DNA of 64,000 nt from positions 31,891 through 95,890 of IMG/VR virus record IMGVR_UViG_3300030106_006270; one strand, written 5' to 3'. Source of the DNA: a virus. The notes beneath the pieces were generated by a model. The model searched no databases, was not told the origin of the DNA, and saw only the letters and a list, made by a program, of their open reading frames with translations. Positions within the stretch are counted from its first letter, which is position 1. Each line of letters begins with the position of its first letter. Both the position numbers and the translations under genes were made by a program. Of the stretch, positions 32,543 to 49,071 are shown piece after piece.

Positions 32543-32945
32543 TCTTTAACCTTTTAAATTCATCATAGTCTTCAATGTAATCACTAGTATCATAATTTGT
32601 ATTTGATAAAACTAACAATACTGAACTTTCATTGTGATATACCTGTTCATCCCAAATCATCTCTGGAATGTATAATGCTTTGTTTGGTTCGTTCAAAATG
32701 TAGTTTCTTCTTTTCTTACCATCGTCACATATAACAGTCACCCCACCATTTACGGCAATTAAAATCTGCTTAGTTTTATGATGACTGTGCTTTCCTCTAT
32801 CATTTTGGTCGTGCACATCGTATACATAAAACATTCTTTTAACTTCAAATGGTATGTCCTTATCTAATTCAATTGGTGTCAACTTACCATCTGGTTCTGT
32901 AAATGTTTTTAATGTAAATTTTTTTACATCATCCAATGTTGTCAT
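32532..32945 (-). CDS. FdtA/QdtA-type dTDP-sugar 3,4-ketoisomerase (cupin)
   Basis: PFEVKRMFYVY; RGKHSHH; LLVLSNTNYD..DYI. Confidence 0.9.
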   Translation of the reverse strand: MTTLDDVKKFTLKTFTEPDGKLTPIELDKDIPFEVKRMFYVYDVHDQNDRGKHSHHKTKQILIAVNGGVTVICDDGKKRRNYILNEPNKALYIPEMIWDEQVYHNESSVLLVLSNTNYDTSDYIEDYDEFKRLKNEN

Positions 32946-33325
32946 TTATTTTCTGTTCCCCATTCTTCTCCAAAATGCCCAACAGCCACTCTGAACTCAT
33001 CTTTTGGATTATACTTCTCTGTCAAATAGTATAGTAAAATAGAATTTGGTTCTAATGCTTTATATCCGTGATAGACACCTGGTTTCATTTCTATTACTCT
33101 TGGATTCTTATCTGATAGATAAACAAACTCACAACCATCTTCCTCTGTAGCCATTCCAACTTTGAATGAACCTTTTAGACAAGTCCAATAATCAGATTGT
33201 ATATCATGTTTATGCCAAGCCACAATATGTTCCGTACTGTTAACATAAGATACATTTATCTGTCCATCAATAACTTCAAAGACATCTAATAACCTCTGTG
33301 CTCTATCGTCTTCATTATAATACAT
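32942..33325 (-). CDS. RmlC-like dTDP-4-keto-sugar 3,5-epimerase
   Basis: DDRA; AWHKH..Q; PGVYHGYKAL; YNPKDE. Confidence 0.8.
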   Translation of the reverse strand: MYYNEDDRAQRLLDVFEVIDGQINVSYVNSTEHIVAWHKHDIQSDYWTCLKGSFKVGMATEEDGCEFVYLSDKNPRVIEMKPGVYHGYKALEPNSILLYYLTEKYNPKDEFRVAVGHFGEEWGTENK

Positions 33326-33336
33326 ATCAATCTCCT

Positions 33337-34521
33337 TTACGAAAATGTCATTATTTTTGGAACATGAGTTATAAATTGTCCACCACTTTCTACGAACTCT
33401 CTCTCCGCATTAGCTATTAAACTTTTAAAGTTCCAAGCACCCAAAAAAGCGTAGTCGTAATCCAAAAGGTTTACTGAATCACGACTTACAACAGGTATAG
33501 AAGAGCCTGGTGCGATAGTTCCTTGTTTATCAGGCGTTGTATCAGTAATACATTCAATCAAATCGGGACCAATTTCACAGTAATTAAATACGGTTGTAGA
33601 TTTCGATGTGGCACCAATACTTACAACTCTCTTTCCATTAAATTTCAAGCCTCTTAGTAACTCAATTAACTCTCTTTTTGATTCCTCAACTCTTTCAGCA
33701 AACTCCACATAAGTAGAGAATTCATTGATACCAAAAAGTTTTTCGTTGAGTATATTATCACTCACGCTTTGCTTTATGGTATTATCTGATGGAATATCTG
33801 GTTTCTTAGCATATATTCTGTTTGAACCGCCATGCACTGATAGATTATCTACATCAAAAATAATCAAACCATTTTTTCTCAGAATATTATCTAATGCTGT
33901 GACTGAGAATACATGCGCGTGTTCATCATATATTTGGTCATATGAACCTCTCTCTAACATTCTGAGTAAAGATGGGTCTTCGAATACAAACACCCCTTTA
34001 TCACTTAACAATTCAGAAACTGCGCTGAAACAATCATCTAAATCTTGAATGTGGCAAATACAATTAGCAGAGTAAATTAAATCCATTTCCCCAACTGATT
34101 CTTTAATTTTGTTAGCTAAGTCAGTTGTCCAAAATTCTGTCCAAGTTCTGTATCCCATTTCTCCTGTCATTTCTGCAAAGTTATCACAAGGTTCAACACA
34201 AAAGGCATCTTCTTTTTTAAAGTTCGATATGAAAGGCCCGTCATTTGAACCAATCTCTAACACACTTTTTGGTTTGAATTCAGATGCTAACATTTCGGCA
34301 GTGCTTTTGAAATGATTAACCATAGGTGTAGATAAAGATGTGTTGTATTTGTAATCCTCATTGAACATCATTTCTGGCTTTACGAAGTCTTTCATAGACA
34401 CAAGTTTCGTTTCTTCATCAAAAACTACTTTCAAATCGTAAAAAAACTCTGACTCTTTCTCATCACTTCTAAAATTATTTGCTATAGGTTGTTTGCCCAA
34501 ATTTAAAAACTCTTTCTTCAT
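33337..34521 (-). CDS. NDP-hexose C-methyltransferase (TylC3/NovU type)
   Basis: LGKQPIANNF; EIGSNDG; YDQIYDEH; HGGSNR; GATSKS; AWNF. Confidence 0.9.
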   Translation of the reverse strand: MKKEFLNLGKQPIANNFRSDEKESEFFYDLKVVFDEETKLVSMKDFVKPEMMFNEDYKYNTSLSTPMVNHFKSTAEMLASEFKPKSVLEIGSNDGPFISNFKKEDAFCVEPCDNFAEMTGEMGYRTWTEFWTTDLANKIKESVGEMDLIYSANCICHIQDLDDCFSAVSELLSDKGVFVFEDPSLLRMLERGSYDQIYDEHAHVFSVTALDNILRKNGLIIFDVDNLSVHGGSNRIYAKKPDIPSDNTIKQSVSDNILNEKLFGINEFSTYVEFAERVEESKRELIELLRGLKFNGKRVVSIGATSKSTTVFNYCEIGPDLIECITDTTPDKQGTIAPGSSIPVVSRDSVNLLDYDYAFLGAWNFKSLIANAEREFVESGGQFITHVPKIMTFS

Positions 34522-35156
34522 TTTAACTCCTTGTTTAAAAATAGTAAATCTTTCTGAGATATTTCATCACCTTCATAGTGCTCACCTACGCTCATAGCCT
34601 CTTCAAAACCAATACTATTCATATATTTGATAACTTCATCACTTGTTGGCGCACCTAAATTATATTCCATATACGCTACTTCTAATATTACAGCAGTTGT
34701 TCTGCTAACCAAATTTTCACCACCTTTTAAAATATCTAACTCAGAACCCTGAGTGTCCATCTTAATCAATTCAAATACTTTTTCATCACTAAATATATCA
34801 TCTAATCTTTGTAAGGTTACAGTTTCTTCTTGAACAAGCTGTGGTATATCCCAATAATTAGCTTCTTTATAGTATGAATTACCCTCTGTATGTGGTTTGT
34901 CACTTCGAGTGTAGAAAGTAACCTCTCTTTCTACATCACCTAAAGCAGCTATCATATATTCATCGTTACTATTAGATGTCAGGTTTAGTAATGTGCTTTC
35001 GTGTATTTGATTAGCTTCTATCATAAAAACATTACAGTAAGGCCAAACTGATTTAGCCCATTTACAGAACTGTCCGGTGTGTGCACCAATATCTAAAACA
35101 TCTTTTGGCATTAATTGGATATCTCTTAATCTCATACCCTCACCATCTCTATACAT
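34518..35156 (-). CDS. FkbM-family methyltransferase
   Basis: DIGAHTG; IEAN; KMDTQGSELDILKG. Confidence 0.9.
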   Translation of the reverse strand: MYRDGEGMRLRDIQLMPKDVLDIGAHTGQFCKWAKSVWPYCNVFMIEANQIHESTLLNLTSNSNDEYMIAALGDVEREVTFYTRSDKPHTEGNSYYKEANYWDIPQLVQEETVTLQRLDDIFSDEKVFELIKMDTQGSELDILKGGENLVSRTTAVILEVAYMEYNLGAPTSDEVIKYMNSIGFEEAMSVGEHYEGDEISQKDLLFLNKELK

Positions 35157-35883
35157 TATTCAACTCCTCTAAGATTTCAACATCATCACAGACTCTTTTT
35201 ATCTGTGTATAGTATTGTCCACTATTTTCTTTGCCAGGCACACCCCAAGGTTTGTGTATTCCAAATGGAGCGTTGTCATCTAACGGATACATATAACTAC
35301 TGTCTATAGAAAAACTTAAAACCTCTTTTACCTTTGGTCTATCAGTAACGCAAGCAGAAACAAAATAGTCTTCACAAGGATTACCCCCATTAGCTAAATA
35401 TGATTCTAACTTATTTTCTATTATATCTAACATAAATTCTTTCTTTCTAAACGACACCCCGCCATTCATAACTCTGTCATATGTTTGTTCCAAAGATGAT
35501 ATATCAAATGGAAACCCCCACCAGCCACCAATGTAGTTATGGTGCATGTAATCATCTATTTTGTATTTCGAATTAGTACATAACATTGTATCACACTCAA
35601 AGTACAAAACATTATCTGCTACAACTTGGTTCCAAAATTTGCTGGTTAACATTATATCTAAACTTGACTCATCTGCTGTGATTGATTTTATGTTGAGATT
35701 AGTAAAGGTAGTTTTTTCAAAATATTTTTCATTTGAGATAAATTCATTTATGTATTCAAAATTATCAGTGCCATAAAATATTTGTAGTTGCCAATCATCT
35801 GGCAAAACTGACATTACATTATTTATTACGAATGGTAGAGCTTTATGTTTTCTAGTCTCTACTATTATCGCTACTTTCTCCAT
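35149..35883 (-). CDS. DUF5672-like glycosyltransferase-related protein
   Basis: IVETRKH; FECD; YIGGWW; NGGVSFRK; EDYF; FGIHKPW. Confidence 0.75.
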   Translation of the reverse strand: MEKVAIIVETRKHKALPFVINNVMSVLPDDWQLQIFYGTDNFEYINEFISNEKYFEKTTFTNLNIKSITADESSLDIMLTSKFWNQVVADNVLYFECDTMLCTNSKYKIDDYMHHNYIGGWWGFPFDISSLEQTYDRVMNGGVSFRKKEFMLDIIENKLESYLANGGNPCEDYFVSACVTDRPKVKEVLSFSIDSSYMYPLDDNAPFGIHKPWGVPGKENSGQYYTQIKRVCDDVEILEELNNV

Positions 35884-37493
35884 AACTTACTTACCAATAT
35901 ACCGTAATCTCTGAAATACAAATGGTCTATATTAGTTCTTAGAAAACAATCTAATCCATGCTCTGGCGTTTCAACTATTGGTTCTCTATCATTGAAGCTG
36001 GTATTTAATACTATGGGAACACCAGTCTTTTTCCTAAACTTATCGATAAAATTATAGTACCATTCATTATCTTCTTTTTTCACAGTCTGAAGTCTAGCAG
36101 TATAATCATGATGTAAAACCGCTGGAACTTTTTCACCCATTCCCTCTTTGAACTTAAGCGCAATGCTCATATATGGACTGTCAACATCATGTACAAACCA
36201 ATCTTTGACATAATCTCTGAGTATTGATGGTGCGAATGGTCGAAACCACTGTCTATGTTTTACCTTTTCATTTACTATATCTTTGTTTTCTTCTGACCTC
36301 GGGTCTGCTAAAATACTTCTATTACCTAACGCTCTCCTACCTGACTCAGAGCCACCACCGAAAACTGAAATGATTTTCTTTTGAGTCATTAACTCAATCA
36401 CATAATCATCGTCACAACCGATAGTTTCAATTTCATCTGCTCTATCTAATATGGCAGATTCAACCTGTTCTTCGCTGTAAGTATATCCCAAATAAGGACT
36501 CCAATTCTTTGGATTGTCATATACTCTTGGTTTATCTAAGATTTGATGCCAGACATATCGAGAAGAACCTAATGATAATCCCGCATCATATGGTATTGGG
36601 TCACAGAATATGTTGATACCAGGAAACCAATCAAACATCTTACCAACTGAAACACAATTCAAACTGACACCACCTGATAAACACAAATTCTTTGGTTTAT
36701 ACTTTTCGATGTAAGGAGTTAAATATGCTTTCATAATCTCCTCAGTTTCAGCCTGTAGTGCAGCAGCTACGTGAAAACCTTCTCTTTCGTCTCTTCTAGT
36801 CTCTTTTGCCAAAAGTCCGTGATTTTTTGGTGTTACATAGCCATCTTTCATATTTTTGAAATGTCCTCGATATTTCTCAGGATCTCCAAGTGCAGCCATA
36901 CCCATAACTGTGCCTGCTTGGTCGCCTCTTGGGTCTCCCCAAGTACCAAGTCCAAATATTTCTCTCGTAACATTAGCCCAATAGAACCCTATATTTATCT
37001 TTGTATTAGGTATCATTTTCAGTGGTTCAATTTTATTATCCTTCCCCAACCAAAAAGTTGTACAGGTATTTACTGCACTTTTACTAGTGTCTATCTCATC
37101 TTTATGGTGTAAGGAACCATCTTGATTGTCTACACCACCACCATCAATAGTCATTATTAGTGCTTCTTTGAAGTTACTACTGAAGAAAGCATTTGCTGCA
37201 TGTGCTTGATGGTGTCCTGTAACATATAATCTACCACCATTCTTCTTTACTACTTCTTCACACATCTCAAGGTCATCCATATATTTATTATCTCTAGGCC
37301 CGCCTGTTCTGTGTGTAGTCATAGAATCTATGTTGTTGACATCTTCATCATTATCTATAAAGAATTTTATCGAATTAGCAACGCAATTTTTTATTCTGTT
37401 AAATCTTTCTATTTCATTATGTACCTTTGGAACACCATCTTCTAAAACTGAGTATGAAGCATCGTGTGCACTGTGAAAACCTACTATTTTCAT
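35871..37493 (-). CDS. O-carbamoyltransferase (NodU/CmcH family)
   Basis: HDAS; HHQAHAANAF; IDGGG; GGVSLN; DAGLSLG; RALGNRSILADP; FRPFAP; LNTSFN. Confidence 0.93.
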   Translation of the reverse strand: MKIVGFHSAHDASYSVLEDGVPKVHNEIERFNRIKNCVANSIKFFIDNDEDVNNIDSMTTHRTGGPRDNKYMDDLEMCEEVVKKNGGRLYVTGHHQAHAANAFFSSNFKEALIMTIDGGGVDNQDGSLHHKDEIDTSKSAVNTCTTFWLGKDNKIEPLKMIPNTKINIGFYWANVTREIFGLGTWGDPRGDQAGTVMGMAALGDPEKYRGHFKNMKDGYVTPKNHGLLAKETRRDEREGFHVAAALQAETEEIMKAYLTPYIEKYKPKNLCLSGGVSLNCVSVGKMFDWFPGINIFCDPIPYDAGLSLGSSRYVWHQILDKPRVYDNPKNWSPYLGYTYSEEQVESAILDRADEIETIGCDDDYVIELMTQKKIISVFGGGSESGRRALGNRSILADPRSEENKDIVNEKVKHRQWFRPFAPSILRDYVKDWFVHDVDSPYMSIALKFKEGMGEKVPAVLHHDYTARLQTVKKEDNEWYYNFIDKFRKKTGVPIVLNTSFNDREPIVETPEHGLDCFLRTNIDHLYFRDYGILVSKLWRK

Positions 37494-38248
37494 TTTAAAA
37501 CCTCCTGTAAAGTCTTTCTATCTATAAATATATCACATTCTTGAATCTTGTCATATTTTAATGCTTCATCAATTATCAAATCAATATCTACTGCGAAGAA
37601 AAAAACCTCTTTTGTTATATCACTCACATCCACTCCCATAAATTTTGAAATCTTTGGTAAAAAGTATCCCAAAGCTCTACCGTGGGATACTCCGTAAATG
37701 CCTGTCATTGGGTAAGATAAAGAATGTAGTAAGTTAGTGCCTGTTATCTCTATAGCCTTTCCACCTAACCTACCAGCTCTTATTAAATCTACCACACTAC
37801 CCTTTTTTCTAAGAATATCAAGTCCTTCAATGCAATATTTTTTACTAACCTTTGTTTTGTTTTTCGAAAACATACTGTCCAAAAAATGACTAACAACATC
37901 ACAGGTTGTATCTTCTATAACCCTTTCTGGCAGATTCAAAAACTCTGAATTAATTATAACCTCTTTTGGTTTCTGTCTTTTTAAACTTTTTTTATCAGTT
38001 CCATCCCAATATACAGACCAAGAGGTTTCTGTAGCACCTGATGCTGTAGTGGGATAACAAACTATAGGTTTACTACTTAATATTTTTGCAGTATCAACAA
38101 CTGCACCACCACCAATTGCAGTCACCTTTTCATAAGAACCTACCTCTGATAATATACTGACATCAGGCGCTCCTTTAACCACTCTAACTTCATCAAAATC
38201 GCTAAGAAAATCTTTTGTAGATTCTGAACATACTAAAAGTTTACTCAA
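37490..38248 (-). CDS. Iron-containing alcohol dehydrogenase, putative phosphonoacetaldehyde reductase
   Basis: GGGAVVDTAK; PTTASG; HSLSYP...SHG; immediately after ppd. Confidence 0.8.
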   Translation of the reverse strand: MSKLLVCSESTKDFLSDFDEVRVVKGAPDVSILSEVGSYEKVTAIGGGAVVDTAKILSSKPIVCYPTTASGATETSWSVYWDGTDKKSLKRQKPKEVIINSEFLNLPERVIEDTTCDVVSHFLDSMFSKNKTKVSKKYCIEGLDILRKKGSVVDLIRAGRLGGKAIEITGTNLLHSLSYPMTGIYGVSHGRALGYFLPKISKFMGVDVSDITKEVFFFAVDIDLIIDEALKYDKIQECDIFIDRKTLQEVLK

Positions 38249-38700
38249 AATAACTCCTTAATTTGTTTGGTATTTTTTTGACAATCCAACTTAACTCTAC
38301 CTGTTTTGCCATCGTTAGTAATTTTGAATATCTTAGTAATTCCCAATAGATTCGTACCTAATGATACACACTCAAATCCACCAACGGATTCATGACACTC
38401 ATTGTCTAAGACATATACAAACAGATTTTTCAAATCCCGTTCAACTATAGTGTGTGTTATACCTAAGTGCATTAGAAGAGCGGCATCACCACTTATAACA
38501 ACTATGTCTTTATCCGTATTAGCAGCCATACCTAACCCAATACAAGGAGCTAATCCCATACTACCCTGCATATAGAATATGTTTTTGTTTTCAGGAAATA
38601 TATTGTACATAGCTCGAGAAATGTAACCAGTGCTTGTAATAAATACAGCATCTTCATGATATGATACAATCGTATCTAATACAAATTCTCTACTGTTCAT
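38245..38700 (-). CDS. ppd: Phosphonopyruvate decarboxylase, ThDP-binding (beta) subunit
   Basis: STGYISR; FYMQGSMG; GDAALLMHLG; DNECHESVGG. Confidence 0.85.
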   Translation of the reverse strand: MNSREFVLDTIVSYHEDAVFITSTGYISRAMYNIFPENKNIFYMQGSMGLAPCIGLGMAANTDKDIVVISGDAALLMHLGITHTIVERDLKNLFVYVLDNECHESVGGFECVSLGTNLLGITKIFKITNDGKTGRVKLDCQKNTKQIKELF

Positions 38701-39062
38701 ACTATAATAAAATTTTCATATCCGATTAATTCCAACATTTCTTTATCAACCCTACCCATAACCTCATGTTGTGGTAAGGTGTGTCTGTGACCAATAACTA
38801 AAAATGGATGTATATTATGTGGTATACACAAACTTGTCAAAGCATTTATACAATTACCAAGACCTGAGTTTTGTAGGTAAACACAACTTTTCGAACCAGC
38901 TAATTCTGCACCAACTGCGATACCAATAGCTTGCCCTTCATTAAGAGCTGGTATGTGATTGAAGCCTGAGTTTTCAATTTGTCTTATGAAAAATTTCAGT
39001 CTACTATCTGGCACACCAGTGAAAAAATCGTATCCGTCTGGTAAATCTGACATATCAAACAT
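38697..39062 (-). CDS. ppd: Phosphonopyruvate decarboxylase, N-terminal (alpha) subunit
   Basis: FFTGVPDS; NEGQAIGIA; YLQNSGLGN; PQHEVMG. Confidence 0.85.
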   Translation of the reverse strand: MFDMSDLPDGYDFFTGVPDSRLKFFIRQIENSGFNHIPALNEGQAIGIAVGAELAGSKSCVYLQNSGLGNCINALTSLCIPHNIHPFLVIGHRHTLPQHEVMGRVDKEMLELIGYENFIIV

Positions 39063-41460
39063 CTGGTATTAACTCCAATATGTCTTTGATTGGTAAGCAC
39101 TTAGAATCACACTCATAAGACCTTTTGTTTTTTAGAATTGTTTTAGCTGTAGAAACCATAGCTGGGTAAGAACTCCTCAGTAAATGATTAGCATAGATAA
39201 CAACATCAACACCTGCCTCTATTAATTCCTGTTCTGTTATCTGGTTATAAGTAGTTGGTACAACCACCAAAGGAACTTTTTTGTCAAACTTTCTATACAT
39301 TATACAGAAAGTAATTACTTCTTTTATATCTCTATCCTTACTGTGAATCATTATACCATCTGCACCATTATCTATGTAAATTCTAGCTCTGTCAAGTGCA
39401 TCATTGAAACCTTTTCCTAAAATCAAACTCTCTATCCTAGCAATTATCATAAAGTCTTTTGTAACTAAAGATTTTTTACCTTCTGATATTTTTTCTGCAA
39501 AATCATCAGCTTCGTCTTGTTTTTGATTTGACGTATCTTCAAATAATGAGTTTCTTTTACTACCTATTTTATCTTCAATAATTACAGCGGACACGCCCAT
39601 TCTTTCTAAAGTTCTAACTGTGTATTTAAAATGCTCAATCATCCCACCATTGTCTAAATCCACAATCATTGGTTTGGTAGTTACATCAAATATTTCACTA
39701 AGAGTTTGACTTACTGTTGTTATATCAACGTATTGATTATCTCTTTTTCCTTTAGATGTGGAATGTGTTAGACTACTCAACCACATAGCATCAAATTCAT
39801 CGTTTCCTACTTTTGTTTTCTCTACTATCAAACCAGTTAAGCCGTTATGTGTTTCTAAAACTCTAACTATAGGTTTAACTTCTAATAACCTTAACAACAT
39901 CGTTCTTCTCACATCAGGTGTAGTTCCGATTTCTTTTAAATGATTATTTATTTTTGTAGATGATATACCTTGTGTATAAGGAACATCAACAATTTCACCA
40001 TCCCACTCCTTCAACTTTTCCGAAACTTTTTGTCGTACTTGCTTTTGAACTCCTTCCAGCCAATCATCACCATGCACAACAAATTTCGGTTTGTACTTCT
40101 CCAAGTTAGGAATGTAATCTAATGTTTCTTGTGGAACAACTGTATGAACCCCAACAATACTTTTGACTATTTCATACCTCTGATTATAAGTTAATGTAGG
40201 CAATCTTTTGTAACTTGCAATTGCAGAATCAGTTAGTAATCCTACCATAACATTACCATGCTTTTTCGCTTCCCTTATTATATTTAAATGTCCGTGATGT
40301 ATTATATCAGCACACATCCCAACATAAGAAATCAATTCAGAACCATCTTCTGGCATTATACCATAATACCAGCACCAATGTCGTGAGTGCTTTAAGTGTT
40401 TTGATAAATCAGCAGCCACATTTTTTATCTTACTACCAGCTAACACATTCCTACGAACTGTGGTGTTATAACCGACATATTTTTCCTCATTTTTTGGTTT
40501 ATGATAAGACAACTGAACATATAAATCATCTTCAATTCTTTTTATAGCTGAAACGGTTGTTGAGTTGTCACTATCTTCTTTACTTCTCCCATCCTCACAT
40601 ACATAGATTCTCTCTGTATCAACCTCATCTAAAACATCATTTGGCAACCTTTCGTCTCTTACTCTATTCAGAATTGTATTTTTGAAGTCGCACATATAAA
40701 TCAAATCTTTCTTAACAGTTTTGTTAGTTATATTATCAGTAACACTACACCAACTCAACCAAGAATCTGGCGGAGACATATGGACATCAATATGATTAGG
40801 TAGTCCGTGGTCTGAAAATAACCAAAACAAGGAATTTTCTTCGGTAAAGTCTATTTTTTTAATGATATTCTTATAACTTTCAACCCAACGCTCTCTTTCA
40901 TTATCAAATTTAGCATCGTGATAATGATTATATTTCAAAAAAATAAAGTGATTCTCATCTTTGGGAAGTTCTTGCATTTTTTCAATAAAATTATACTCAT
41001 CTCCCCTTTTTTTGTATTGTGGTAAGCCACCAACAACTTTATCTTCGATGTAAGGATATATAATATAATCTCTGTTTATAGAACATATCTCATCCGGCAC
41101 AAATCTGAAATTTTCATTATCACCTCTTGTAGGACCCATAGAGTGTATGTGTATCTTCCAATCATCAGGCAGCATATTAAATATCATTTTTTTGTCTGCA
41201 ATTTGCTTTTCAAACTCTCCTTTAGATTTGTAAGTATCCTCATAAGCAATCCCCTTCATTGGATACAACTCAGAGGGTGACAAACCAGAAAACATAGAGG
41301 ATAGGGTAGTAGCAGTCCAACTGTTAGTTATAAAATCAGAACAGTGTAATCCCTTTGATTTTATAATGTCTTCCATACCGACATTTTTTCTAACCATATC
41401 AAACAGTATAGCATATATCTTCATTATAGTTTCCTTATAAAAGCCAACATAGTTGGCCAT
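39055..41460 (-). CDS. pepM: Triple fusion: alkaline-phosphatase/sulfatase-like domain + cytidylyltransferase + phosphoenolpyruvate mutase (likely start 41424)
   Basis: PepM motif EDKIGSKRNS (EDKX5NS) and IARIES; HHGH cytidylyltransferase with VHGDDW and GISST; N-terminal LFDMVR, WTATTLSSMFSG and FSDHG. Confidence 0.92.
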   Translation of the reverse strand: MANYVGFYKETIMKIYAILFDMVRKNVGMEDIIKSKGLHCSDFITNSWTATTLSSMFSGLSPSELYPMKGIAYEDTYKSKGEFEKQIADKKMIFNMLPDDWKIHIHSMGPTRGDNENFRFVPDEICSINRDYIIYPYIEDKVVGGLPQYKKRGDEYNFIEKMQELPKDENHFIFLKYNHYHDAKFDNERERWVESYKNIIKKIDFTEENSLFWLFSDHGLPNHIDVHMSPPDSWLSWCSVTDNITNKTVKKDLIYMCDFKNTILNRVRDERLPNDVLDEVDTERIYVCEDGRSKEDSDNSTTVSAIKRIEDDLYVQLSYHKPKNEEKYVGYNTTVRRNVLAGSKIKNVAADLSKHLKHSRHWCWYYGIMPEDGSELISYVGMCADIIHHGHLNIIREAKKHGNVMVGLLTDSAIASYKRLPTLTYNQRYEIVKSIVGVHTVVPQETLDYIPNLEKYKPKFVVHGDDWLEGVQKQVRQKVSEKLKEWDGEIVDVPYTQGISSTKINNHLKEIGTTPDVRRTMLLRLLEVKPIVRVLETHNGLTGLIVEKTKVGNDEFDAMWLSSLTHSTSKGKRDNQYVDITTVSQTLSEIFDVTTKPMIVDLDNGGMIEHFKYTVRTLERMGVSAVIIEDKIGSKRNSLFEDTSNQKQDEADDFAEKISEGKKSLVTKDFMIIARIESLILGKGFNDALDRARIYIDNGADGIMIHSKDRDIKEVITFCIMYRKFDKKVPLVVVPTTYNQITEQELIEAGVDVVIYANHLLRSSYPAMVSTAKTILKNKRSYECDSKCLPIKDILELIPDV

Positions 41461-42128
41461 TTGTAAGTGTAACCTTTAGGATTAGTATAAGAGTCCACTC
41501 CTATTTTAGTTCTACACCACTTGACTTGACTCTTAATGTCGGACAGTCTTTCTTTAGATATATAATTAGTTTCGGTTATAGTCTCATCGTTATTTTCCAT
41601 ACTATAAAGTAAATCAGTTGTCAATGTATCACCAGATTTTATAACTTCGTAACCATATAAATGAGACCATTCACCACTACAACTATGTAAATCTTCAATC
41701 ACATATAACCCACCTGACTTTACTTCATCCCATAAATAATTCAAAGACACCTGCATTTGTTCCATAGTGTGTCCACCATCATCTATTATCATATCAAACT
41801 CACCACCATTCTCTGATATGAACCTTTTTAAATCATCGGTATTTGACTGATCTCCTTTAAACATTACAGACCTATCTAAGTAAGGATTACCCTCTTGCAA
41901 TTTATTAAACTCATCAACACCATACTCAAAAATATCATAACCATAAACAGTAGCATTTTCAAAATACTCTAACCACATTCTATGAGACCTGCCTGTTTCC
42001 ACACCTATCTCAAGAACTTTACCAATATTATATCTATCTTCCTCTAATATATCGTGATAATGTTTTGTGTAACCCAACTCTAAAGCATCGACATCATATT
42101 TTCTAGTTAAATCTTCTAATGTAGCCAT
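41424..42128 (-). CDS. SAM-dependent sugar O-methyltransferase-like protein
   Basis: VLEIGV; GDQS; IIDDGGH; GGLYVIEDL. Confidence 0.85.
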   Translation of the reverse strand: MATLEDLTRKYDVDALELGYTKHYHDILEEDRYNIGKVLEIGVETGRSHRMWLEYFENATVYGYDIFEYGVDEFNKLQEGNPYLDRSVMFKGDQSNTDDLKRFISENGGEFDMIIDDGGHTMEQMQVSLNYLWDEVKSGGLYVIEDLHSCSGEWSHLYGYEVIKSGDTLTTDLLYSMENNDETITETNYISKERLSDIKSQVKWCRTKIGVDSYTNPKGYTYKWPTMLAFIRKL

Positions 42129-42880
42129 TATATTCTCTTTTCCAAATAATGGTCTTGAACATTGGTATGTCCAACATGTAATATAATTTCATTACCACAT
42201 CCTATGTAACCACTACCAACTCCCCACTGCTGTGGCATTGAATAAGGATGTATACCAGTATTCCAACTAGCTCTACTCATTTGAAGTGGTGCTCTTTTTG
42301 GATTTGTCTCCATCAACCTACAGAATTCACTTAACCAAGCCCTACCTCTGTTATCACTCACATCGAAACTACACCACCATAAATCATAGGTTAATAAATT
42401 ACCTTTACTTTCATCCTCATCTAAATGGTAATCTCCATCGTTACCTCTAGTGTAAATACCATCTACTTTTACCATTTGTCTTTCATTAGTTGGAACACAA
42501 ACTCCAAATTTCTTTGTTATTGGCAAAATAGTCCTTACATCTGATGATATGAACATAAGGTCTGAATCAACAGATATAGCGACATCAGCAGTTGATTCTA
42601 ATAAACCTTTAGCTTCGTAGTAATCACAACAATGCCAACCCCATCTATGATTAGCCTTTGTGAAAGGACTCTTATCTATATCAATCAATCTCACTTCAAC
42701 ATCAGGATAATTCTTACCTAACTCTTTGATATCAGTATACAATGTTAACTTGGCTTCTGGAAAGAATTTCTTTACAGAAGAATATGTTGGGTCTAATCTA
42801 TACTCATCAGTAAAACTATCTGGCTGATTAGCAGTAGACCTCAAACCAAACTCTGAAAATATAAACTCTATATTCATCAA
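42128..42880 (-). CDS. Putative GT-A glycosyl/phospho-transferase
   Basis: LYTD; VDSD DxD motif; cluster context. Confidence 0.5.
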   Translation of the reverse strand: MMNIEFIFSEFGLRSTANQPDSFTDEYRLDPTYSSVKKFFPEAKLTLYTDIKELGKNYPDVEVRLIDIDKSPFTKANHRWGWHCCDYYEAKGLLESTADVAISVDSDLMFISSDVRTILPITKKFGVCVPTNERQMVKVDGIYTRGNDGDYHLDEDESKGNLLTYDLWWCSFDVSDNRGRAWLSEFCRLMETNPKRAPLQMSRASWNTGIHPYSMPQQWGVGSGYIGCGNEIILHVGHTNVQDHYLEKRI

Positions 42881-43299
42881 CTCCTCTCCTTTACAATCTT
42901 AGCTATAGTATTAGTAGTGCTGTAGTCATGATCTCTACTATTGAATACTATATCGATTGGCAAATCATCGCCTGTAAATGGTTTTCCTTTATGGTCTGCT
43001 CCTAATATACGAACATTAATAAAGTCTACATTTTTAGATAGATACTCATATAGTGCTGGTTCACCATCGTACAGAAAAGCAGTATCTACATACTTATTTG
43101 ATTTTACCATCAACAACCTCTCTTCAGGTGTCCATATAGGTTCACTTTTAACTCTACCATCTGGTTGACTAACTTTAGTTTTGTATTCATTAACTGCTAC
43201 TATTAAATGGTCACAGTATTGTGTACATTCTTTTAACATCATAACATGACCAGGATGCATGATATCGAAGTATCCGCTAGTAAATCCTATCACTTGCAT
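42877..43299 (-). CDS. TagD/RfaE-like cytidylyltransferase
   Basis: GYFDIMHPGH; LGADH; YSTT. Confidence 0.88.
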   Translation of the reverse strand: MQVIGFTSGYFDIMHPGHVMMLKECTQYCDHLIVAVNEYKTKVSQPDGRVKSEPIWTPEERLLMVKSNKYVDTAFLYDGEPALYEYLSKNVDFINVRILGADHKGKPFTGDDLPIDIVFNSRDHDYSTTNTIAKIVKERS

Positions 43300-44057
43300 A
43301 TTTCTGTAAATGTCCTTTTAATCCAATAATTAGCATCTCTATTCATAGGGTTAGGTGGTATAGAATTGAAGTGATATACCCAACCTGCATCTAAATAGTG
43401 TAACTCATCAGTCCAATACTCTTTACCAGTCAATACCAATAAATTTTTTCTATACAAATCTTGTAGGTTATAACAACTTGGTAAATATTTTACATCTACT
43501 TTTTCTTTGTGTAACATATAATTTACTATGGTTTGGTCAGTACCACATTTCAACTCATCAATAGTCTGAATAATTTTATCGCTGTTCTCTTTGTAGTAAG
43601 ACTTCATAGCGTCAAAGAATGACTTATGATTACTATTAACAATCTGAAATCCACCGTTAATATAATTCCAAGGATGTATCCTGATACCATCGAATAACTT
43701 ATCACCAAATCCTCTGATACTCCGCAGTACCCACTCATAACAACCATCAACCCTCACACCACAGTATCTATTGTCTGTTTCATCAAAAAAATTAGGACAA
43801 TTTGGATGAACTATAGTATCAGCATCTACCATCAGTATTTGATTATATTCGATTTGATTAGCTTCAAGTATATCAAAAAGATAATACCTTTGCCAGGTAA
43901 TTTTCATATAATCCACAGGATATAATAAATCTTCCCACACTAATAATTCACAGCTATTTTTTTCACACCAATTCTTCCAACTGTTGACAGAGTATAAGTA
44001 GGAATCACTCCTACCATTACCTAAATCTATATTTGGAATAAATACTACATTTTTCAT
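43290..44057 (-). CDS. GT-A glycosyltransferase (GT8/GT34-like)
   Basis: VDAD; YINGG; DQTIVNY; YHF. Confidence 0.8.
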   Translation of the reverse strand: MKNVVFIPNIDLGNGRSDSYLYSVNSWKNWCEKNSCELLVWEDLLYPVDYMKITWQRYYLFDILEANQIEYNQILMVDADTIVHPNCPNFFDETDNRYCGVRVDGCYEWVLRSIRGFGDKLFDGIRIHPWNYINGGFQIVNSNHKSFFDAMKSYYKENSDKIIQTIDELKCGTDQTIVNYMLHKEKVDVKYLPSCYNLQDLYRKNLLVLTGKEYWTDELHYLDAGWVYHFNSIPPNPMNRDANYWIKRTFTEICK

Positions 44058-44743
44058 TTTTTTCCTACGTGGGGATTTGTATCTCTTTTGAAATATTTGT
44101 TGTCTCTTGAGTCACCATCAATGTAATTAAACTTTAAATTATTCTTCCAAGCAACATAGTTAAAACTCAATTGGTCTCTCCTGCTACCATACTTTATTTC
44201 TGTCCACCAATCTTCCATAGTTTGTATACAATCTTTTTCATTGTGTCTTCTTAGGATAACCATACCTGTAATCAAACCATTATTTGCAGGATAGCTCAGT
44301 ATTCTGTATGTCTCTAACTGATTCTGTATAACAAATGGATTGTCTTTATAATTCAACACACCCCTTTCTGGTGTGGCATTCATATTTTTTTCACCTAACT
44401 GAAATATAGTTCTAGCTTCTTCATAAGCACAGTTTCTTGAATCCAATCCATTATTATTATGACTAAAAAATGCCACATTAGCGTCACCCAAATACTTATC
44501 AATCAACTCATTAAGATTCTTATCATTCACATACATATTACCATCAATAAAAATACTATACTCATAGTCTTTGAGATACCGATGTGGTAGAATCTTAAAT
44601 CTCTTAGCATTTCTTGTATTATCTTGGTAGATAGGTAGACTATTCTCCTCACTGAAACATTTCCAATCCCAACCTTCAATTTTCTGTGGATTGACATTAT
44701 CGTATCCACCAAATATAGATGTGTAAATTATACTGTTTGACAT
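44054..44743 (-). CDS. DUF616 (TOD1/MUCI70-like) glycosyltransferase-related protein
   Basis: YTSIFGGYD; KILPHRYL; IFIDGN; SRRDQLSFNYV. Confidence 0.85.
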   Translation of the reverse strand: MSNSIIYTSIFGGYDNVNPQKIEGWDWKCFSEENSLPIYQDNTRNAKRFKILPHRYLKDYEYSIFIDGNMYVNDKNLNELIDKYLGDANVAFFSHNNNGLDSRNCAYEEARTIFQLGEKNMNATPERGVLNYKDNPFVIQNQLETYRILSYPANNGLITGMVILRRHNEKDCIQTMEDWWTEIKYGSRRDQLSFNYVAWKNNLKFNYIDGDSRDNKYFKRDTNPHVGKK

Positions 44744-46170
44744 ATTATCCCCTCATAATCTCGTAGTATTTTATGTGCCGTTTTGGGAATAACGACATCT
44801 TTTTTGTGTCCTATATACTTAACAACCTTTATCAATCCAGCCTCTATGAATTCATCAACAGCCTTCATCACACTGTTTGGAAATAATCCATAGTCATCGA
44901 AAATAAGTAATGGTTTGTAAAAGTAATTTATAGCATTTTCTATGTCTCTTCTAACATATGGATAATCATGCACACAATCTATAAAAACCACTTGATGATT
45001 TTTATCGAAATCCCAAACTGTTCCATAAACATCTTTTACTACAAAATCTATATTTGTTTTATTCTGACTAAATTGTCTAGCAGAGTGTATTCTGGCAGGA
45101 TCGAAGTCAACGGCAGTAACCTTATTGAAGTAACCACTGAGGACATGAGATGTGTATCCTAAAGAACATCCTATTTCTACTACATTTTTGTCTCTAAAAT
45201 TATCTCCTAAGAAATCTATCAAGTCTGCTTTAAATTTTAATGTAGTGGTTGTTTTAGATTCAAACTTATCTGGTGAACGCATAAGGTGTTGTCTTTTGTA
45301 CTCATCATCCATATAAACTTCACCACGAACAAAGTTATGAGCAATTGGAAATTGTCTCTGTACGGTGTAAACATCTGAATACCTAGTCACTATTTGTGTT
45401 GTTCCGCATTGATTACCTACGTTATACTTAGCTTTAGACTTTATGTAAAGTTGAACCCTAATAGGCATATGTCTCATATCTAATGCTTTGTCAATATAAT
45501 CAAACTCTGTCTGTTCAATCGGTTTTTCTGTCCAATAAAAGTGTTTCAATTCTTTATCTATTTTTTCGATTATAAGCTTATCCATAGTATAATCATATCT
45601 GTCTGATATTAATAAACAACCAAATTCATTTTCACCAATATATTCTTTTATTATATCATCACCTAATTTCTTTTCTTCATCAGACCAATACATCTCAGGC
45701 TGAGAGTCTTCATAGTCTTTTTCATCGAACTGCCAGAACTTTAACATTTGTTCTACAAGAGGAACATTCAAATCATCATTGTCATAAATTCTGTAGTGGT
45801 CATGGAATATTTCACCATCATATTCGTCTACAAAATCATCGACAAAAGGATTGTTTTTGAATACAGTTTCGACATTATGAAACTTACTGTTCCAAGGATT
45901 TAAATCGGGATGGTATTTAGTAAATAATTTTTCTAAAAGATTAACTGATGGAACATATACTTTACAATCAGGATACTTTTCTTTCAATAATCTTGGCATT
46001 GATGATATAATTCCCCAATCACCAATACCATGCGCTGTTCTCATAACCATAAACTCTTTTCTTTCTAAATATTCATCAGGTATAACAAGACCATCAGACT
46101 TTTCAAAACCAAGAGTATCTGTTTCCTCAACATCATAAACATTATTATCGACTATTCTCCAAAATATCAT
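44728..46170 (-). CDS. Fusion: GT9-like N-terminal domain + class I methyltransferase
   Basis: GIGDWG..SSMPRLLKEKYPD and NNPFVD; C-terminal EIGCSLG, FIDCVHDY, FDDY. Confidence 0.7.
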   Translation of the reverse strand: MIFWRIVDNNVYDVEETDTLGFEKSDGLVIPDEYLERKEFMVMRTAHGIGDWGIISSMPRLLKEKYPDCKVYVPSVNLLEKLFTKYHPDLNPWNSKFHNVETVFKNNPFVDDFVDEYDGEIFHDHYRIYDNDDLNVPLVEQMLKFWQFDEKDYEDSQPEMYWSDEEKKLGDDIIKEYIGENEFGCLLISDRYDYTMDKLIIEKIDKELKHFYWTEKPIEQTEFDYIDKALDMRHMPIRVQLYIKSKAKYNVGNQCGTTQIVTRYSDVYTVQRQFPIAHNFVRGEVYMDDEYKRQHLMRSPDKFESKTTTTLKFKADLIDFLGDNFRDKNVVEIGCSLGYTSHVLSGYFNKVTAVDFDPARIHSARQFSQNKTNIDFVVKDVYGTVWDFDKNHQVVFIDCVHDYPYVRRDIENAINYFYKPLLIFDDYGLFPNSVMKAVDEFIEAGLIKVVKYIGHKKDVVIPKTAHKILRDYEGIICQTV

Positions 46171-46829
46171 AATCCCCTCCGAACATTCATTTCTCTACTA
46201 AAATTTTGATTATAAAACATATTCTGTTCTTCCTGCCTTTCTATAGTTTTTGGATGATACAAACTTAACTCCTCATGAGGTGGCAAATGTGAGTAAGTTT
46301 TGTAACCTCTAATCACTTCATGTAATGGTCTTTCCCATCTAATTTTCTCATCATTTTTAAATACACGAGCTTGATAGTCGGGGTAATTAACCCATCCCTT
46401 TTCTGTAACTTTCCAACCCCACTTTTTAATATGTTCATCTTTCATGCCATCAATTGTATTTACCCTCGGTATCCAAACCAAATCAACATCATTAATAGTT
46501 AGTATTTGTTTGAGTTGATTTATTAATATTTCATTTGGATACTCATCCGCATCAATGTGAAAAACATAATCACCTATGGAGTTTTCTATGACTGAATTCT
46601 TTTGAGAAGCAAAGTCTTTATTGAGTTCTCTCTGATAAACTTTCATAACTCTAGAGTCATCGTAAAACTTTTTGGAGTATATATCTAGCTCAAATCTTAC
46701 AGCATCATCTTCACCATCAACACAAACTACAATCTCATCATTGTCATCTATGTTTTTATACAATACATCTAATAGCCTCTTCAGTTCTTCAGCCTCTTTG
46801 TGGACTGTGATACCATAACTAATTATCAT
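46167..46829 (-). CDS. GT2-family glycosyltransferase
   Basis: DFASQKN; IDADE; PDYQAR; LHE. Confidence 0.88.
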   Translation of the reverse strand: MIISYGITVHKEAEELKRLLDVLYKNIDDNDEIVVCVDGEDDAVRFELDIYSKKFYDDSRVMKVYQRELNKDFASQKNSVIENSIGDYVFHIDADEYPNEILINQLKQILTINDVDLVWIPRVNTIDGMKDEHIKKWGWKVTEKGWVNYPDYQARVFKNDEKIRWERPLHEVIRGYKTYSHLPPHEELSLYHPKTIERQEEQNMFYNQNFSREMNVRRGL

Positions 46830-49063: not shown

Positions 49064-49071
49064 TCTATCTC

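What the first reader, a model, noticed from the sequence alone, without database searches (positions are those of the whole stretch)
37490..43299. Phage-encoded phosphonate (2-hydroxyethylphosphonate) pathway inside a viral glycan island
Seen: contiguous, translationally coupled genes for PepM (EDKIGSKRNS), a two-subunit phosphonopyruvate decarboxylase, an Fe-dependent alcohol dehydrogenase and two cytidylyltransferase domains, flanked by glycosyltransferases, on a contig whose replication genes are T4-like. Established: PepM -> Ppd -> Fe-ADH converts PEP to 2-hydroxyethylphosphonate (HEP), and cytidylyltransferases activate phosphonates for phosphonoglycan synthesis in bacteria. Inference: this phage builds C-P-bond-decorated glycans on virion proteins or on the infected cell surface. 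Such glycans would resist hydrolysis, could alter receptors, and would make viruses a source of environmental phosphonates.
Basis: partly seen in the sequence, partly recalled or inferred. Interest (0 to 1): 0.88.

Follow-up and report, generated by a model that had tools for sequence, protein, structure and literature searches.

The report
Phage-borne compact hydroxyethylphosphonate glycan cassette
An uncultured marine T4-like phage carries a shrunken but apparently intact gene set for making the carbon-phosphorus compound 2-hydroxyethylphosphonate in CMP-activated form. It sits inside the phage's own 26-kb sugar-chain factory, and I found no paper describing this for any tailed phage.

Summary
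On the minus strand at 37490-41424 lie four overlapping genes:
- a three-domain protein (alkaline-phosphatase-like domain, Fom1-type cytidylyltransferase, PEP mutase);
- a two-subunit phosphonopyruvate decarboxylase of 121 and 151 aa;
- a 252-aa Fe-alcohol dehydrogenase.

PEP mutase passes its NCBIfam cut-off and has the EDKxxxxxNS motif. The cytidylyltransferase domain's best solved match is the Fom1 HEP cytidylyltransferase. The predicted product is CMP-2-hydroxyethylphosphonate (CMP-HEP).

The decarboxylase and dehydrogenase are about 30% shorter than in 71 of 72 cellular cassettes. They keep the cofactor and metal motifs and show dN/dS of 0.02-0.25. The dehydrogenase folds at pLDDT 95.

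About 20 IMG/VR contigs carry the same compact cassette, one of them a complete 189-kb genome. Eighteen of 20 viral PEP mutases form one clade.

The surrounding island (24101-50466, 27 genes) has no predicted membrane protein. I infer that HEP is esterified onto a glycan built in the cytoplasm.

The fused alkaline-phosphatase-like domain is the best candidate for the transferase. In other viral cassettes the same gene slot holds a TagF-like, LicD or sulfatase-like gene.

The second cytidylyltransferase (42877-43299) is generic and is not conserved in sister contigs.

This scan has flagged the same cassette before on other viral DNA.

The parts
40336..41424 (-). Alkaline-phosphatase-superfamily domain (N-terminal part of the fusion protein). 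Candidate HEP-phosphonyl transferase.
   Evidence: No Pfam or PDB sequence hit. The Atlas model gives TM 0.64-0.68 to sulfatase-family proteins. My AF2 model (pLDDT 58, pTM 0.63) gives Foldseek E 4e-8 to 1e-4 against YejM/PbgA, sulfatases, GacH and LtaP. D21, T49, T52, H104, H106, D217 and H218 are invariant in 8 homologues. It is a separate ORF directly upstream of CT-PepM in 7 sister contigs. The family is rare: 139 representatives among 1.84 billion proteins.
39916..40335 (-). Fom1-type cytidylyltransferase domain. Predicted reaction: HEP + CTP -> CMP-HEP.
   Evidence: PF01467 with E 6e-16. The best solved match is 5X3D, the Fom1 CyTase domain (E 5e-48), against 3e-14 for ethanolamine-phosphate cytidylyltransferase and 2e-6 for TagD. 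The HHGH and GISST motifs are present.
39055..39915 (-). PEP mutase domain (PEP -> phosphonopyruvate).
   Evidence: TIGR02320 scores 371 bits, above the 319.6 cut-off. EDKIGSKRNS is present. The best PDB match is 1M1B PEP mutase, E 3e-41.
38697..39062 (-). Phosphonopyruvate decarboxylase alpha subunit (PYR domain), 121 aa.
   Evidence: TIGR03297 positions 1-120, E 1e-29. The best PDB match is 9IZ3_A, a Ppd alpha subunit, E 1.5e-14. Sister contigs are 70-83% identical. dN/dS is 0.02-0.23.
38245..38700 (-). Phosphonopyruvate decarboxylase beta subunit (ThDP-binding PP domain), 151 aa.
   Evidence: TIGR03297 positions 172-297, E 4.5e-28. The best PDB match is 9IZ3_B, E 6e-18, with GDA...DNxxHExxGG aligned to GDG...DNxxHExxGG. 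dN/dS is 0.07-0.17.
37490..38248 (-). Compact Fe-dependent alcohol dehydrogenase, 252 aa (phosphonoacetaldehyde -> HEP).
   Evidence: The best NCBIfam match is TIGR03405 PsrA/Phn_Fe-ADH (70 bits, far below its cut-off). GGGxVxDxAK, PTTxxG, D117, H121, H175 and H189 are invariant in 13 viral homologues. The AF2 model has pLDDT 95.3 and pTM 0.92. TM (by query) is 0.82-0.84 to 360-385-aa Fe-ADHs.
41424..42128 (-). SAM methyltransferase, probably a sugar O-methyltransferase.
   Evidence: PF13578. The best PDB matches are MycE (3SSM) and TylE (8IA9), E 5e-12. Present next to the cassette in most sister contigs.
42128..42880 (-). 250-aa protein of a virus-only family, possibly a GT-A-type glycosyltransferase.
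   Evidence: No Pfam or NCBIfam hit. The Atlas neighbours are all Uroviricota hypotheticals, with one weak GT8 lead. It lies directly upstream of the AP-domain gene in six of the seven sister contigs examined, and elsewhere in the seventh, L091.
42877..43299 (-). Second, generic cytidylyltransferase-like protein, 140 aa. Not linked to the phosphonate steps.
   Evidence: PF01467 E 1.7e-10. The RfaE-II and TagD models match far below their cut-offs. Only the HxGH region resembles the Fom1-type domain. No homologue in the sister contigs.
35871..37493 (-). NodU/CmcH-type carbamoyltransferase directly downstream of the Fe-ADH gene.
   Evidence: PF16861 E 4e-60 and PF02543 E 3e-16. Found at this position only in this window and in L094.
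24101..50466 (-). Glycan-building island of 27 contiguous genes that holds the cassette.
   Evidence: It encodes sugar-nucleotide dehydratases and epimerases, FdtA, a DegT aminotransferase, a C-methyltransferase, FkbM and other methyltransferases, a 2OG oxygenase, and GT2, GT4, PLOD-GT, TOD1/MUCI70 and DUF5672 proteins. No protein has a hydrophobic 19-mer with Kyte-Doolittle mean >= 1.6.

Best explanation
The phage makes CMP-2-hydroxyethylphosphonate in the infected cell using four of its own genes.

1. The PEP mutase domain converts PEP to phosphonopyruvate.
2. The two-subunit ThDP decarboxylase makes the step irreversible by forming phosphonoacetaldehyde.
3. The compact Fe-ADH reduces that to 2-hydroxyethylphosphonate (HEP).
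4. The Fom1-type cytidylyltransferase domain couples HEP to CMP.

These four assignments rest on family and structure matches.

The next steps are inferred. The activated phosphonate is passed to a hydroxyl of a sugar chain that the surrounding membrane-protein-free island assembles in the cytoplasm. The transfer is probably done by the alkaline-phosphatase-like domain fused to the same polypeptide, through a Thr-phosphonyl intermediate as in LtaS/EptA-type enzymes. The product would be an HEP-ester-decorated glycan on a soluble acceptor. A phage protein is the most likely acceptor. A host envelope precursor is not excluded.
For: Enzyme identities:
- PepM is above its equivalog cut-off and has the signature motif.
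- The CyTase domain's best solved match is Fom1 (5X3D, E 5e-48). Fom1 is shown biochemically to make CMP-HEP (Cho et al. 2017, as cited in PMC6697681).
- The Ppd subunits match the solved two-subunit Ppd 9IZ3 and keep the ThDP motif.
- The Fe-ADH keeps its four metal ligands and the NAD glycine motif in 13 of 13 homologues. It folds at pLDDT 95.

Conservation and spread:
- All five parts have dN/dS of 0.02-0.25.
- The order CT-PepM, Ppd, Fe-ADH is the standard cellular cassette, seen in 71-75 of 80 loci.
- About 20 viral contigs share the compact form. Eighteen of 20 form one clade with SH-aLRT 99.

No onward small-molecule enzymes:
- There is no radical-SAM gene in the contig.

Link to a glycan and a transferase:
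- The slot just upstream of CT-PepM holds a TagF-like gene (L098, L100), LicD (L099) or a sulfatase-like gene (L105) in other viral cassettes. Here it holds the AP-like domain.
- That domain is a separate gene in 7 sister contigs and is fused only in this subclade.
- Contigs from three runs of three studies span the fusion junction at 40335.
- Elsewhere the AP-like family is fused to GT2, LicD or DegT domains, so it belongs to glycan synthesis.
- The island has no membrane protein.
Against: - No chemistry has been measured.
- The Ppd subunits and the Fe-ADH are 27-32% shorter than characterised enzymes. They score far below the NCBIfam equivalog cut-offs, so activity is not guaranteed.
- The AP-like domain matches no Pfam family, and its model is of low confidence (pLDDT 58).
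- The known LtaS/EptA enzymes are membrane-anchored and use lipid donors, not CMP-linked ones.
- In two proteins the AP-like domain is fused to LicD. That suggests it may do something other than the LicD-type transfer.
- Only about 52% of the genome is held. A LicD, a TagF-like enzyme or a further tailoring enzyme could lie in the unseen part.
Confidence: 0.72

Rival explanations
1. The cassette makes free HEP or another small phosphonate, and no glycan is decorated. The product could be a fosfomycin-like antimetabolite, a precursor of methylphosphonate, or a form of phosphorus that competitors cannot use.
For: The Fom1/Fom2/FomC enzymes are the first steps of fosfomycin synthesis. One other viral cassette (L105) has a B12-binding radical-SAM gene right after the Fe-ADH, as Fom3 follows in that pathway.
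Against: The held contig has no radical-SAM gene. No epoxidase, HEPD or MpnS-like ORF turned up among the island proteins scanned. The cassette is embedded among 20 or more sugar-nucleotide and glycosyltransferase genes, and the neighbouring slot holds transferases in other viruses.
Confidence: 0.12
2. CMP-HEP is made as proposed, but the alkaline-phosphatase-like domain is not the transferase. It could be a hydrolase or phosphodiesterase that releases CMP, trims the product or scavenges phosphorus. The transfer would then be done by another island protein (the 250-aa virus-only protein, the TOD1/MUCI70-like protein or DUF5672) or by a host enzyme.
For: Most alkaline-phosphatase-superfamily members are hydrolases. 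The domain occurs fused to LicD in two proteins. Several neighbouring conserved proteins have no assigned function.
Against: The gene slot is equivalent to that of the TagF-like, LicD and sulfatase-like genes in other viral cassettes. The domain is fused to the enzyme that makes the donor. The D / T / DH spacing resembles the LtaS/EptA transferases (compared with residues recalled from memory).
Confidence: 0.3
3. The shortened decarboxylase and dehydrogenase are decaying remnants, and the pathway no longer works.
For: They are 27-32% shorter than in 71 of 72 cellular cassettes and score far below the equivalog cut-offs.
Against: The same short lengths are kept across viral contigs as low as 39% identical. 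dN/dS is 0.02-0.25. The cofactor and metal residues are invariant. The Fe-ADH model is very confident. At least 234 90%-identity clusters of the short Fe-ADH exist in metagenomes.
Confidence: 0.05
4. The island is host DNA joined to a phage contig by misassembly.
For: Glycan islands are typical of cellular genomes. One short Fe-ADH homologue is labelled Candidatus Marinimicrobia in NCBI.
Against: GC and coding strand are uniform across the 95.9-kb contig. Phage genes lie on both sides. Seven or more viral contigs are syntenic. A complete viral genome with terminal repeats carries the cassette. The best cellular CT-PepM is only 65% identical or less. Short contigs from four runs of four studies lie on nearly all of 33001-53000.
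Confidence: 0.02

Closest known systems
Early fosfomycin pathway of Streptomyces wedmorensis: Fom1 (CyTase-PEP mutase fusion), Fom2 (Ppd), FomC (Fe-ADH)
   Same: The same four reactions, and the same N-terminal PF01467 CyTase fused to PEP mutase. Fom1's CyTase domain (5X3D) is the best solved match. The product is CMP-HEP.
   Different: There is no Fom3, FomD or Fom4. Ppd is split and shortened. The Fe-ADH has 252 aa rather than about 370. An extra alkaline-phosphatase-like domain is present. The genes lie in a phage glycan island, not an antibiotic cluster.
Widespread cellular CT-PepM / Ppd / Fe-ADH cassette of Bacteroidota, Ignavibacteria, Patescibacteria, archaea and others, and HEP-bearing exopolysaccharides (Stackebrandtia nassauensis, cited in PMC8942020)
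   Same: The gene order is the same, and CT-PepM is 58-65% identical. It is presumed to serve cell-surface glycans.
   Different: Cellular versions have one Ppd gene of about 375 aa and an Fe-ADH of about 365-380 aa in 71 of 72 loci. None of the 80 loci has the AP-like domain, the 250-aa protein or the other island genes.
Bacterial phosphonyl-tailoring (Pnt) pathway: Ppm-Ppd-AEPT, PntC, LicD-type transferase (Rice et al. 2019, PMC6697681)
   Same: The logic is the same: make a phosphonate, activate it with CMP, and hand it to a cell-surface glycan or lipid.
   Different: That pathway makes 2-aminoethylphosphonate through an aminotransferase, and mostly uses PF12804 cytidylyltransferases. The Ppm fusion inventory in that paper lists only nucleotidyltransferase and ThDP-domain fusions, and no alkaline-phosphatase-like fusion.
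The single virus-encoded phosphonate pathway in the literature I could search: an AEP cluster on a giant-virus (NCLDV) MAG contig (Li and Horsman 2022, PMC8942020)
   Same: A virus-borne PEP mutase next to sugar genes, read by the authors as a viral phosphonoglycan.
   Different: That case is a eukaryotic giant virus with a Ppm-Ppd fusion and an aminotransferase, giving AEP. The same study scanned RefSeq viruses and 364 huge phages and found no phage Ppm.
LtaS / EptA / GacH-type alkaline-phosphatase-superfamily transferases
   Same: The fold class is the same. An acidic residue, a Thr and an Asp-His pair are conserved at similar spacing.
   Different: Those enzymes have N-terminal membrane domains and take phosphoglycerol or phosphoethanolamine from lipids. 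This domain is soluble, matches no Pfam model, and would need to use CMP-HEP.

Membership tests
PEP mutase (TIGR02320 / PF13714 with Ppm motif) | Score above the equivalog cut-off, and higher than for phosphonopyruvate hydrolase or methylisocitrate lyase | tested here: met
   371 bits against a cut-off of 319.6. Pphn_pyruv_hyd scores 127 bits and prpB 90 bits.
PEP mutase (TIGR02320 / PF13714 with Ppm motif) | EDKxxxxxNS active-site loop | tested here: met
   EDKIGSKRNS in the translation. The motif is invariant in 10 aligned CT-PepM sequences.
PEP mutase (TIGR02320 / PF13714 with Ppm motif) | Catalyses PEP to phosphonopyruvate | not testable with these tools
   Needs an enzyme assay.
Fom1-type HEP cytidylyltransferase (PF01467) | HxGH nucleotidyltransferase motif, with the domain N-terminal to PEP mutase | tested here: met
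   HHGH at residues 388-391 of the 801-aa ORF. PF01467 covers 383-504 and PepM 524-799.
Fom1-type HEP cytidylyltransferase (PF01467) | Closer to Fom1 CyTase than to other cytidylyltransferases | tested here: met
   5X3D gives E 5e-48, against 3e-14 for ECT and 2e-6 for TagD.
Fom1-type HEP cytidylyltransferase (PF01467) | Substrate is HEP | not testable with these tools
   Inferred from the Fom1 match and the adjacent Fe-ADH in place of an aminotransferase.
Phosphonopyruvate decarboxylase (TIGR03297; two-subunit form as in PDB 9IZ3) | PYR and PP ThDP domains, with the activating Glu and the GDG...N(D)N Mg-ThDP motif | tested here: met
   NEGQA lies in the alpha subunit. GDA...DNECHESVGG in the beta subunit aligns to GDG...DNGMHESTGG of 9IZ3_B.
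Phosphonopyruvate decarboxylase (TIGR03297; two-subunit form as in PDB 9IZ3) | Full-length match above the equivalog cut-off | tested here: not met
   103 and 98 bits against a cut-off of 312.5. The subunits cover profile positions 1-120 and 172-297 of 360. They have 121 and 151 aa, against 181 and 186 aa in 9IZ3.
Phosphonoacetaldehyde reductase, group III Fe-ADH (PhpC/FomC/PsrA, TIGR03405) | Fe-ADH fold with the Asp-His-His-His metal site and the GGGxxxD NAD(P) motif | tested here: met
   The residues are invariant. The model has pLDDT 95.3 and TM (by query) of 0.82-0.84 to Fe-ADH structures.
Phosphonoacetaldehyde reductase, group III Fe-ADH (PhpC/FomC/PsrA, TIGR03405) | Equivalog-level score | tested here: not met
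   TIGR03405 is the best family but scores 70 bits against a cut-off of 423.7. About 100 residues of the standard fold are missing (TM by target 0.55-0.60).
Alkaline-phosphatase superfamily, LtaS/EptA-like transferase | Alkaline-phosphatase core fold | tested here: met
   Atlas TM of 0.64-0.68 to sulfatase-family models. Foldseek probability 1.00 and E down to 4e-8 against YejM, sulfatases, GacH and LtaP, but from a low-confidence model.
Alkaline-phosphatase superfamily, LtaS/EptA-like transferase | Metal-binding acidic residue, Thr nucleophile and Asp-His pair | tested here: inconclusive
   D21, T49/T52 and D217-H218 are invariant in 8 sequences. Their roles are assigned by spacing only, from remembered LtaS/EptA residues.
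Alkaline-phosphatase superfamily, LtaS/EptA-like transferase | N-terminal membrane domain and a lipid donor | tested here: not met
   No hydrophobic segment is present, and the domain is fused to soluble enzymes.
Alkaline-phosphatase superfamily, LtaS/EptA-like transferase | Sequence membership in Pfam Sulfatase, Phosphodiest or Metalloenzyme | tested here: not met
   No Pfam hit at E <= 0.01 and no PDB sequence hit at E <= 10.
Fosfomycin biosynthetic cluster | Fom3 (B12 radical-SAM methyltransferase) and the later enzymes | tested here: not met
   No PF04055 match in the 95.9-kb contig, while the control genomes all match. Only about 52% of the genome is held.
Methylphosphonate pathway (MpnS after HEP) | An MpnS or HEPD-type oxygenase next to the HEP genes | tested here: inconclusive
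   No specific model was available. None of the island ORFs scanned gave a cupin or HEPD-like hit. The only 2OG oxygenase belongs to PF13640.

The most novel reading that the evidence does not exclude
Tailed marine phages carry their own miniaturised route to CMP-HEP. A previously unrecognised soluble alkaline-phosphatase-like enzyme uses a CMP-phosphonate donor to put HEP esters on phage-built glycans. Infected cells or virions would then be a direct, so far uncounted source of the HEP-bearing polysaccharide found in marine dissolved organic phosphorus.
Probability: 0.3. Interest if true: 0.85.

Novelty: new variant of a known kind. Interest (0 to 1): 0.72.

Why it matters
Phosphonates make up a large share of marine high-molecular-weight dissolved organic phosphorus. 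HEP is a major polysaccharide-bound form and a precursor of methylphosphonate (PMC8942020, PMC8931226).

Producers have been sought only among cells. The one survey I found that included phages reported no phage PEP mutase.

Here the pathway sits in a phage lineage found in marine metagenomes of seven studies, two of whose runs may be the source sample. The short Fe-ADH family has at least 234 sequence clusters.

If the pathway is active, three things follow:
- Viruses redirect host PEP and phosphorus into hydrolysis-resistant C-P glycans.
- Cell-surface phosphonates have been proposed as an anti-phage defence (PMC8931226). Phages may use the same chemistry themselves.
- The half-size Ppd and Fe-ADH would be minimal versions of these enzymes, useful for enzymology.

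Tried and rejected
I could not see the contexts of the 76-80% identical 442-aa CT-PepM proteins or of the Marinimicrobia-labelled short Fe-ADH.
- GenBank phages hold no close relative. There are only two unannotated faecal 'Bacteriophage sp.' fragments with about 50% identical CT-PepM.
- No donor host could be named. The best of 589 or more cellular CT-PepM hits is 65% identical or less, and they are spread over many phyla.
- A profile comparison of the AP-like domain with the sulfatase-like protein upstream of the L105 cassette was not significant (hhalign probability 2%).
- The methyltransferase at 41424-42128 matched sugar O-methyltransferases (MycE, TylE) and no phosphonate O-methyltransferase.
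- The 250-aa protein gave only virus-only hypothetical neighbours.
- No RNA holder was listed among the sequencing runs.
- The laid contigs were short (0.5-1.7 kb), so no single record spans the cassette. A weak joint at 33385->50830 (side of 22 letters) was not taken as evidence.
- The window's DNA polymerase found no match in five records that carry distant cassettes. The tool warns that an empty answer there shows little.

Full report
**What is there.** The window is bases 31891-95890 of a 95.9-kb IMG/VR viral contig that CheckV rates about 52% complete. ORFs of 60 aa or more on the minus strand cover 95% of the contig, against 21% for plus-strand ORFs. GC stays near 0.33 throughout the window.

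The contig carries these phage genes:
- a T4-type family-B DNA polymerase, clamp loader, DnaB-like helicase and ribonucleotide reductase to the right of the finding;
- a baseplate wedge protein and CobS/CobT-like genes to the left.

The polymerase's nearest isolate is Microcystis phage Mel-JY01 at 47% identity. T4-like cyanophages and a pelagiphage follow at about 32-34%.

**The cassette.** Four overlapping genes occupy 37490-41424.

- **Fusion protein.** The first ORF (39055-41460) most likely starts at the ATG at 41424. That start has an AAGGAA ribosome-binding site and overlaps the stop of the upstream gene by one base. All homologues begin at the same MKIY. The protein has three domains.
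  - Residues 524-799 are a PEP mutase. TIGR02320 scores 371 bits against a cut-off of 319.6, while phosphonopyruvate hydrolase scores 127 and methylisocitrate lyase 90. The EDKIGSKRNS loop is present.
  - Residues 383-504 are a PF01467 cytidylyltransferase. Its best solved relative by a wide margin is the CyTase domain of Fom1 (5X3D, E 5e-48; the next is ethanolamine-phosphate cytidylyltransferase at 3e-14). Fom1's CyTase converts HEP and CTP to CMP-HEP (Cho et al. 2017, as cited in PMC6697681).
  - The first ~365 residues match no Pfam model and no PDB sequence. They fold as an alkaline-phosphatase-superfamily domain. The Atlas model gives TM 0.64-0.68 to sulfatase-family proteins. My own model is of low confidence (pLDDT 58) and hits YejM/PbgA, sulfatases, GacH and LtaP at Foldseek E of 4e-8 to 1e-4.
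- **Decarboxylase.** Two subunits of 121 and 151 aa follow. Both hit TIGR03297 best, and both match the solved two-subunit Ppd 9IZ3. The ThDP-Mg motif aligns (GDA...DNxxHExxGG).
- **Dehydrogenase.** The 252-aa Fe-ADH comes last. Its best NCBIfam match is the phosphonate-pathway Fe-ADH TIGR03405.

**Are the shortened enzymes real?** In the 80 best cellular loci from 185,579 species genomes, CT-PepM is followed by Ppd and Fe-ADH in 71-75 cases. Ppd is a single gene of about 375 aa in 71 of 72 of these. The Fe-ADH is about 365-380 aa.

Every viral cassette but one instead has a split Ppd of about 125 + 155 aa and an Fe-ADH of about 255-265 aa.

Four results argue that these short forms are functional:
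- The lengths are kept down to 39% identity.
- dN/dS is 0.02-0.25 for all five parts in pairs where dS is not saturated.
- In 13 viral Fe-ADHs the glycine-rich NAD motif, the PTTxxG motif and the Asp-His-His-His metal ligands never vary.
- With that 13-sequence alignment the Fe-ADH folds at pLDDT 95.3 and pTM 0.92. It superposes on 360-385-aa Fe-ADHs with TM 0.82-0.84 by query and 0.55-0.60 by target. It is a trimmed but complete core.

**Distribution.** IMG/VR holds about 20 contigs with the compact cassette. One is a 189,182-bp genome with direct terminal repeats, rated 100% complete. No match to this window's polymerase was found in it.

In a tree with the 80 closest cellular sequences, 18 of the 20 viral CT-PepM sequences form one clade (SH-aLRT 99). 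Its sister, with weak support, is a mostly Bacteroidota group.

The best cellular identity is 65%. The short Fe-ADH family has at least 234 clusters at 90% identity, and every one of the top 120 is 206-273 aa long.

Two caveats apply:
- One cluster of that family is labelled Candidatus Marinimicrobia in NCBI.

So "virus-only" cannot be claimed.

The DNA of 37400-43400 is held, at half of its sampled words or more, by 20 marine runs from seven studies. Two of those runs may be the source sample.

**The fusion and the transferase question.** In seven sister contigs the AP-like domain is a separate ORF of 375-408 aa that ends at or overlaps the start of CT-PepM. It is fused in this window and in 11 database clusters of 782-808 aa. 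Near-identical contigs from three runs of three studies span the junction at 40335.

D21, T49, T52, H104, H106, D217 and H218 are invariant. From memory, the spacing acidic residue / Thr / Asp-His resembles the metal and nucleophile set of LtaS and EptA. That is a lead, not a test.

The family is rare: 139 representatives among 1.84 billion proteins. Elsewhere it occurs fused to GT2, LicD or DegT domains.

In more distant viral cassettes, the gene just upstream of CT-PepM is one of these:
- a TagF-like CDP-glycerol-type phosphotransferase (L098, L100);
- a LicD protein (L099);
- a sulfatase-family protein (L105).

This positional equivalence, together with the fusion to the donor-making enzyme, is my reason for proposing the domain as the HEP transferase. 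I put this step at roughly 45%.

The published Ppm fusion inventory lists only nucleotidyltransferase and ThDP-domain fusions.

**Context.** Genes 24101-50466 form an island of 27 contiguous genes. It encodes:
- 4,6-dehydratase/epimerase-type enzymes, FdtA, a DegT aminotransferase and a sugar C-methyltransferase;
- FkbM, MycE-like and other methyltransferases, a carbamoyltransferase and a 2OG oxygenase;
- GT2, GT4, PLOD-type, TOD1/MUCI70-like and DUF5672 proteins.

None of these proteins has a hydrophobic 19-mer at Kyte-Doolittle >= 1.6, whereas such segments do occur elsewhere on the contig. So I see no flippase, polymerase or initiating phosphoglycosyl transferase. The glycan is probably built on a soluble acceptor. 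This is an inference from a crude test.

No radical-SAM gene is present. I therefore see no route onward to fosfomycin-type products.

The second cytidylyltransferase (42877-43299) is generic, shares only the HxGH region with the Fom1-type domain, and is missing from the sister contigs.

**Literature and earlier notes.** The searchable library holds no description of a PEP mutase pathway in a tailed phage.
- Li and Horsman (PMC8942020) scanned RefSeq viruses, 364 huge phages and 501 giant-virus MAGs. They found a single viral Ppm, an AEP cluster on a giant-virus contig.
- Other hits concern virus-borne phosphonate degradation genes.
- This scan has already reported the same compact HEP cassette on other viral contigs, with the same closest-known system. 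It has also reported the AP-like domain of this very window.

My tests of spread, clade structure and the cellular comparison were run independently here.

**Verdict.** The chemistry is of a known kind (Fom1/Fom2/FomC, phosphonoglycans). Three things are new:
- the host of the genes, a marine tailed phage lineage;
- the miniaturised enzymes;
- the three-domain fusion with a candidate new transferase.

Noticed in passing
L105:8538-14452 (IMGVR_UViG_3300020411_004289, 106 kb, rated 21% complete): Another viral compact cassette has a sulfatase-family gene upstream. A B12-binding radical-SAM gene lies directly after the Fe-ADH, in the position Fom3 holds in fosfomycin synthesis. This virus may methylate CMP-HEP to a hydroxypropylphosphonate.
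   Followed up: partly
L098:8941-12883 (IMGVR_UViG_3300007511_000001, 189,182 bp, direct terminal repeats): A complete viral genome carries the compact cassette with a TagF-like (Glyphos_transf) gene upstream. No match to this window's DNA polymerase was found in it, so the cassette seems to move between phage groups.
   Followed up: partly
window 16159-17910 (-): A 583-aa ORF has only the NTPase and finger domains of bacterial DNA polymerase III alpha. The same phage also has a full T4-type family-B polymerase at 56952-59444.
   Followed up: no
window 28106-28837 and 31901-32542 (-): A PLOD-type glycosyltransferase domain and a prolyl/lysyl-hydroxylase-like 2OG-Fe(II) oxygenase (PF13640) lie in the same island. 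The pairing recalls collagen-type hydroxylation plus glycosylation of proteins, and hints that the island's acceptor is a protein.
   Followed up: no
window 33385 -> 50830: Contigs in two marine runs (X3, X5) join these two places, skipping 17.4 kb that include the cassette. Only 22 letters lie on the shorter side, so the joint is weak. It could mark relatives that lack the central island.
   Followed up: no
L108 and L111 (GVMAG giant-virus MAG contigs); L107, L109, L110, L112: Fom1-type cytidylyltransferase homologues (52-68% identical) occur without a PEP mutase domain, including on two giant-virus MAG contigs. In L112 one is followed by an Fe-ADH-like gene.
   Followed up: no
window 22291-22752 (-): An HNH endonuclease gene lies about 1.3 kb from the left edge of the glycan island.
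   Followed up: no
window 50813-51220 and 52750-53133 (-): A YspA/SLOG-family protein and a DUF1599 'nucleotide modification associated' protein sit between the island and the replication genes.
   Followed up: no
G000:C1:24570-28208 (left of the window): CobS-like (phrog_249) and CobT-like (phrog_5298) genes are present, as in marine T4-like cyanophages and pelagiphages.
   Followed up: no
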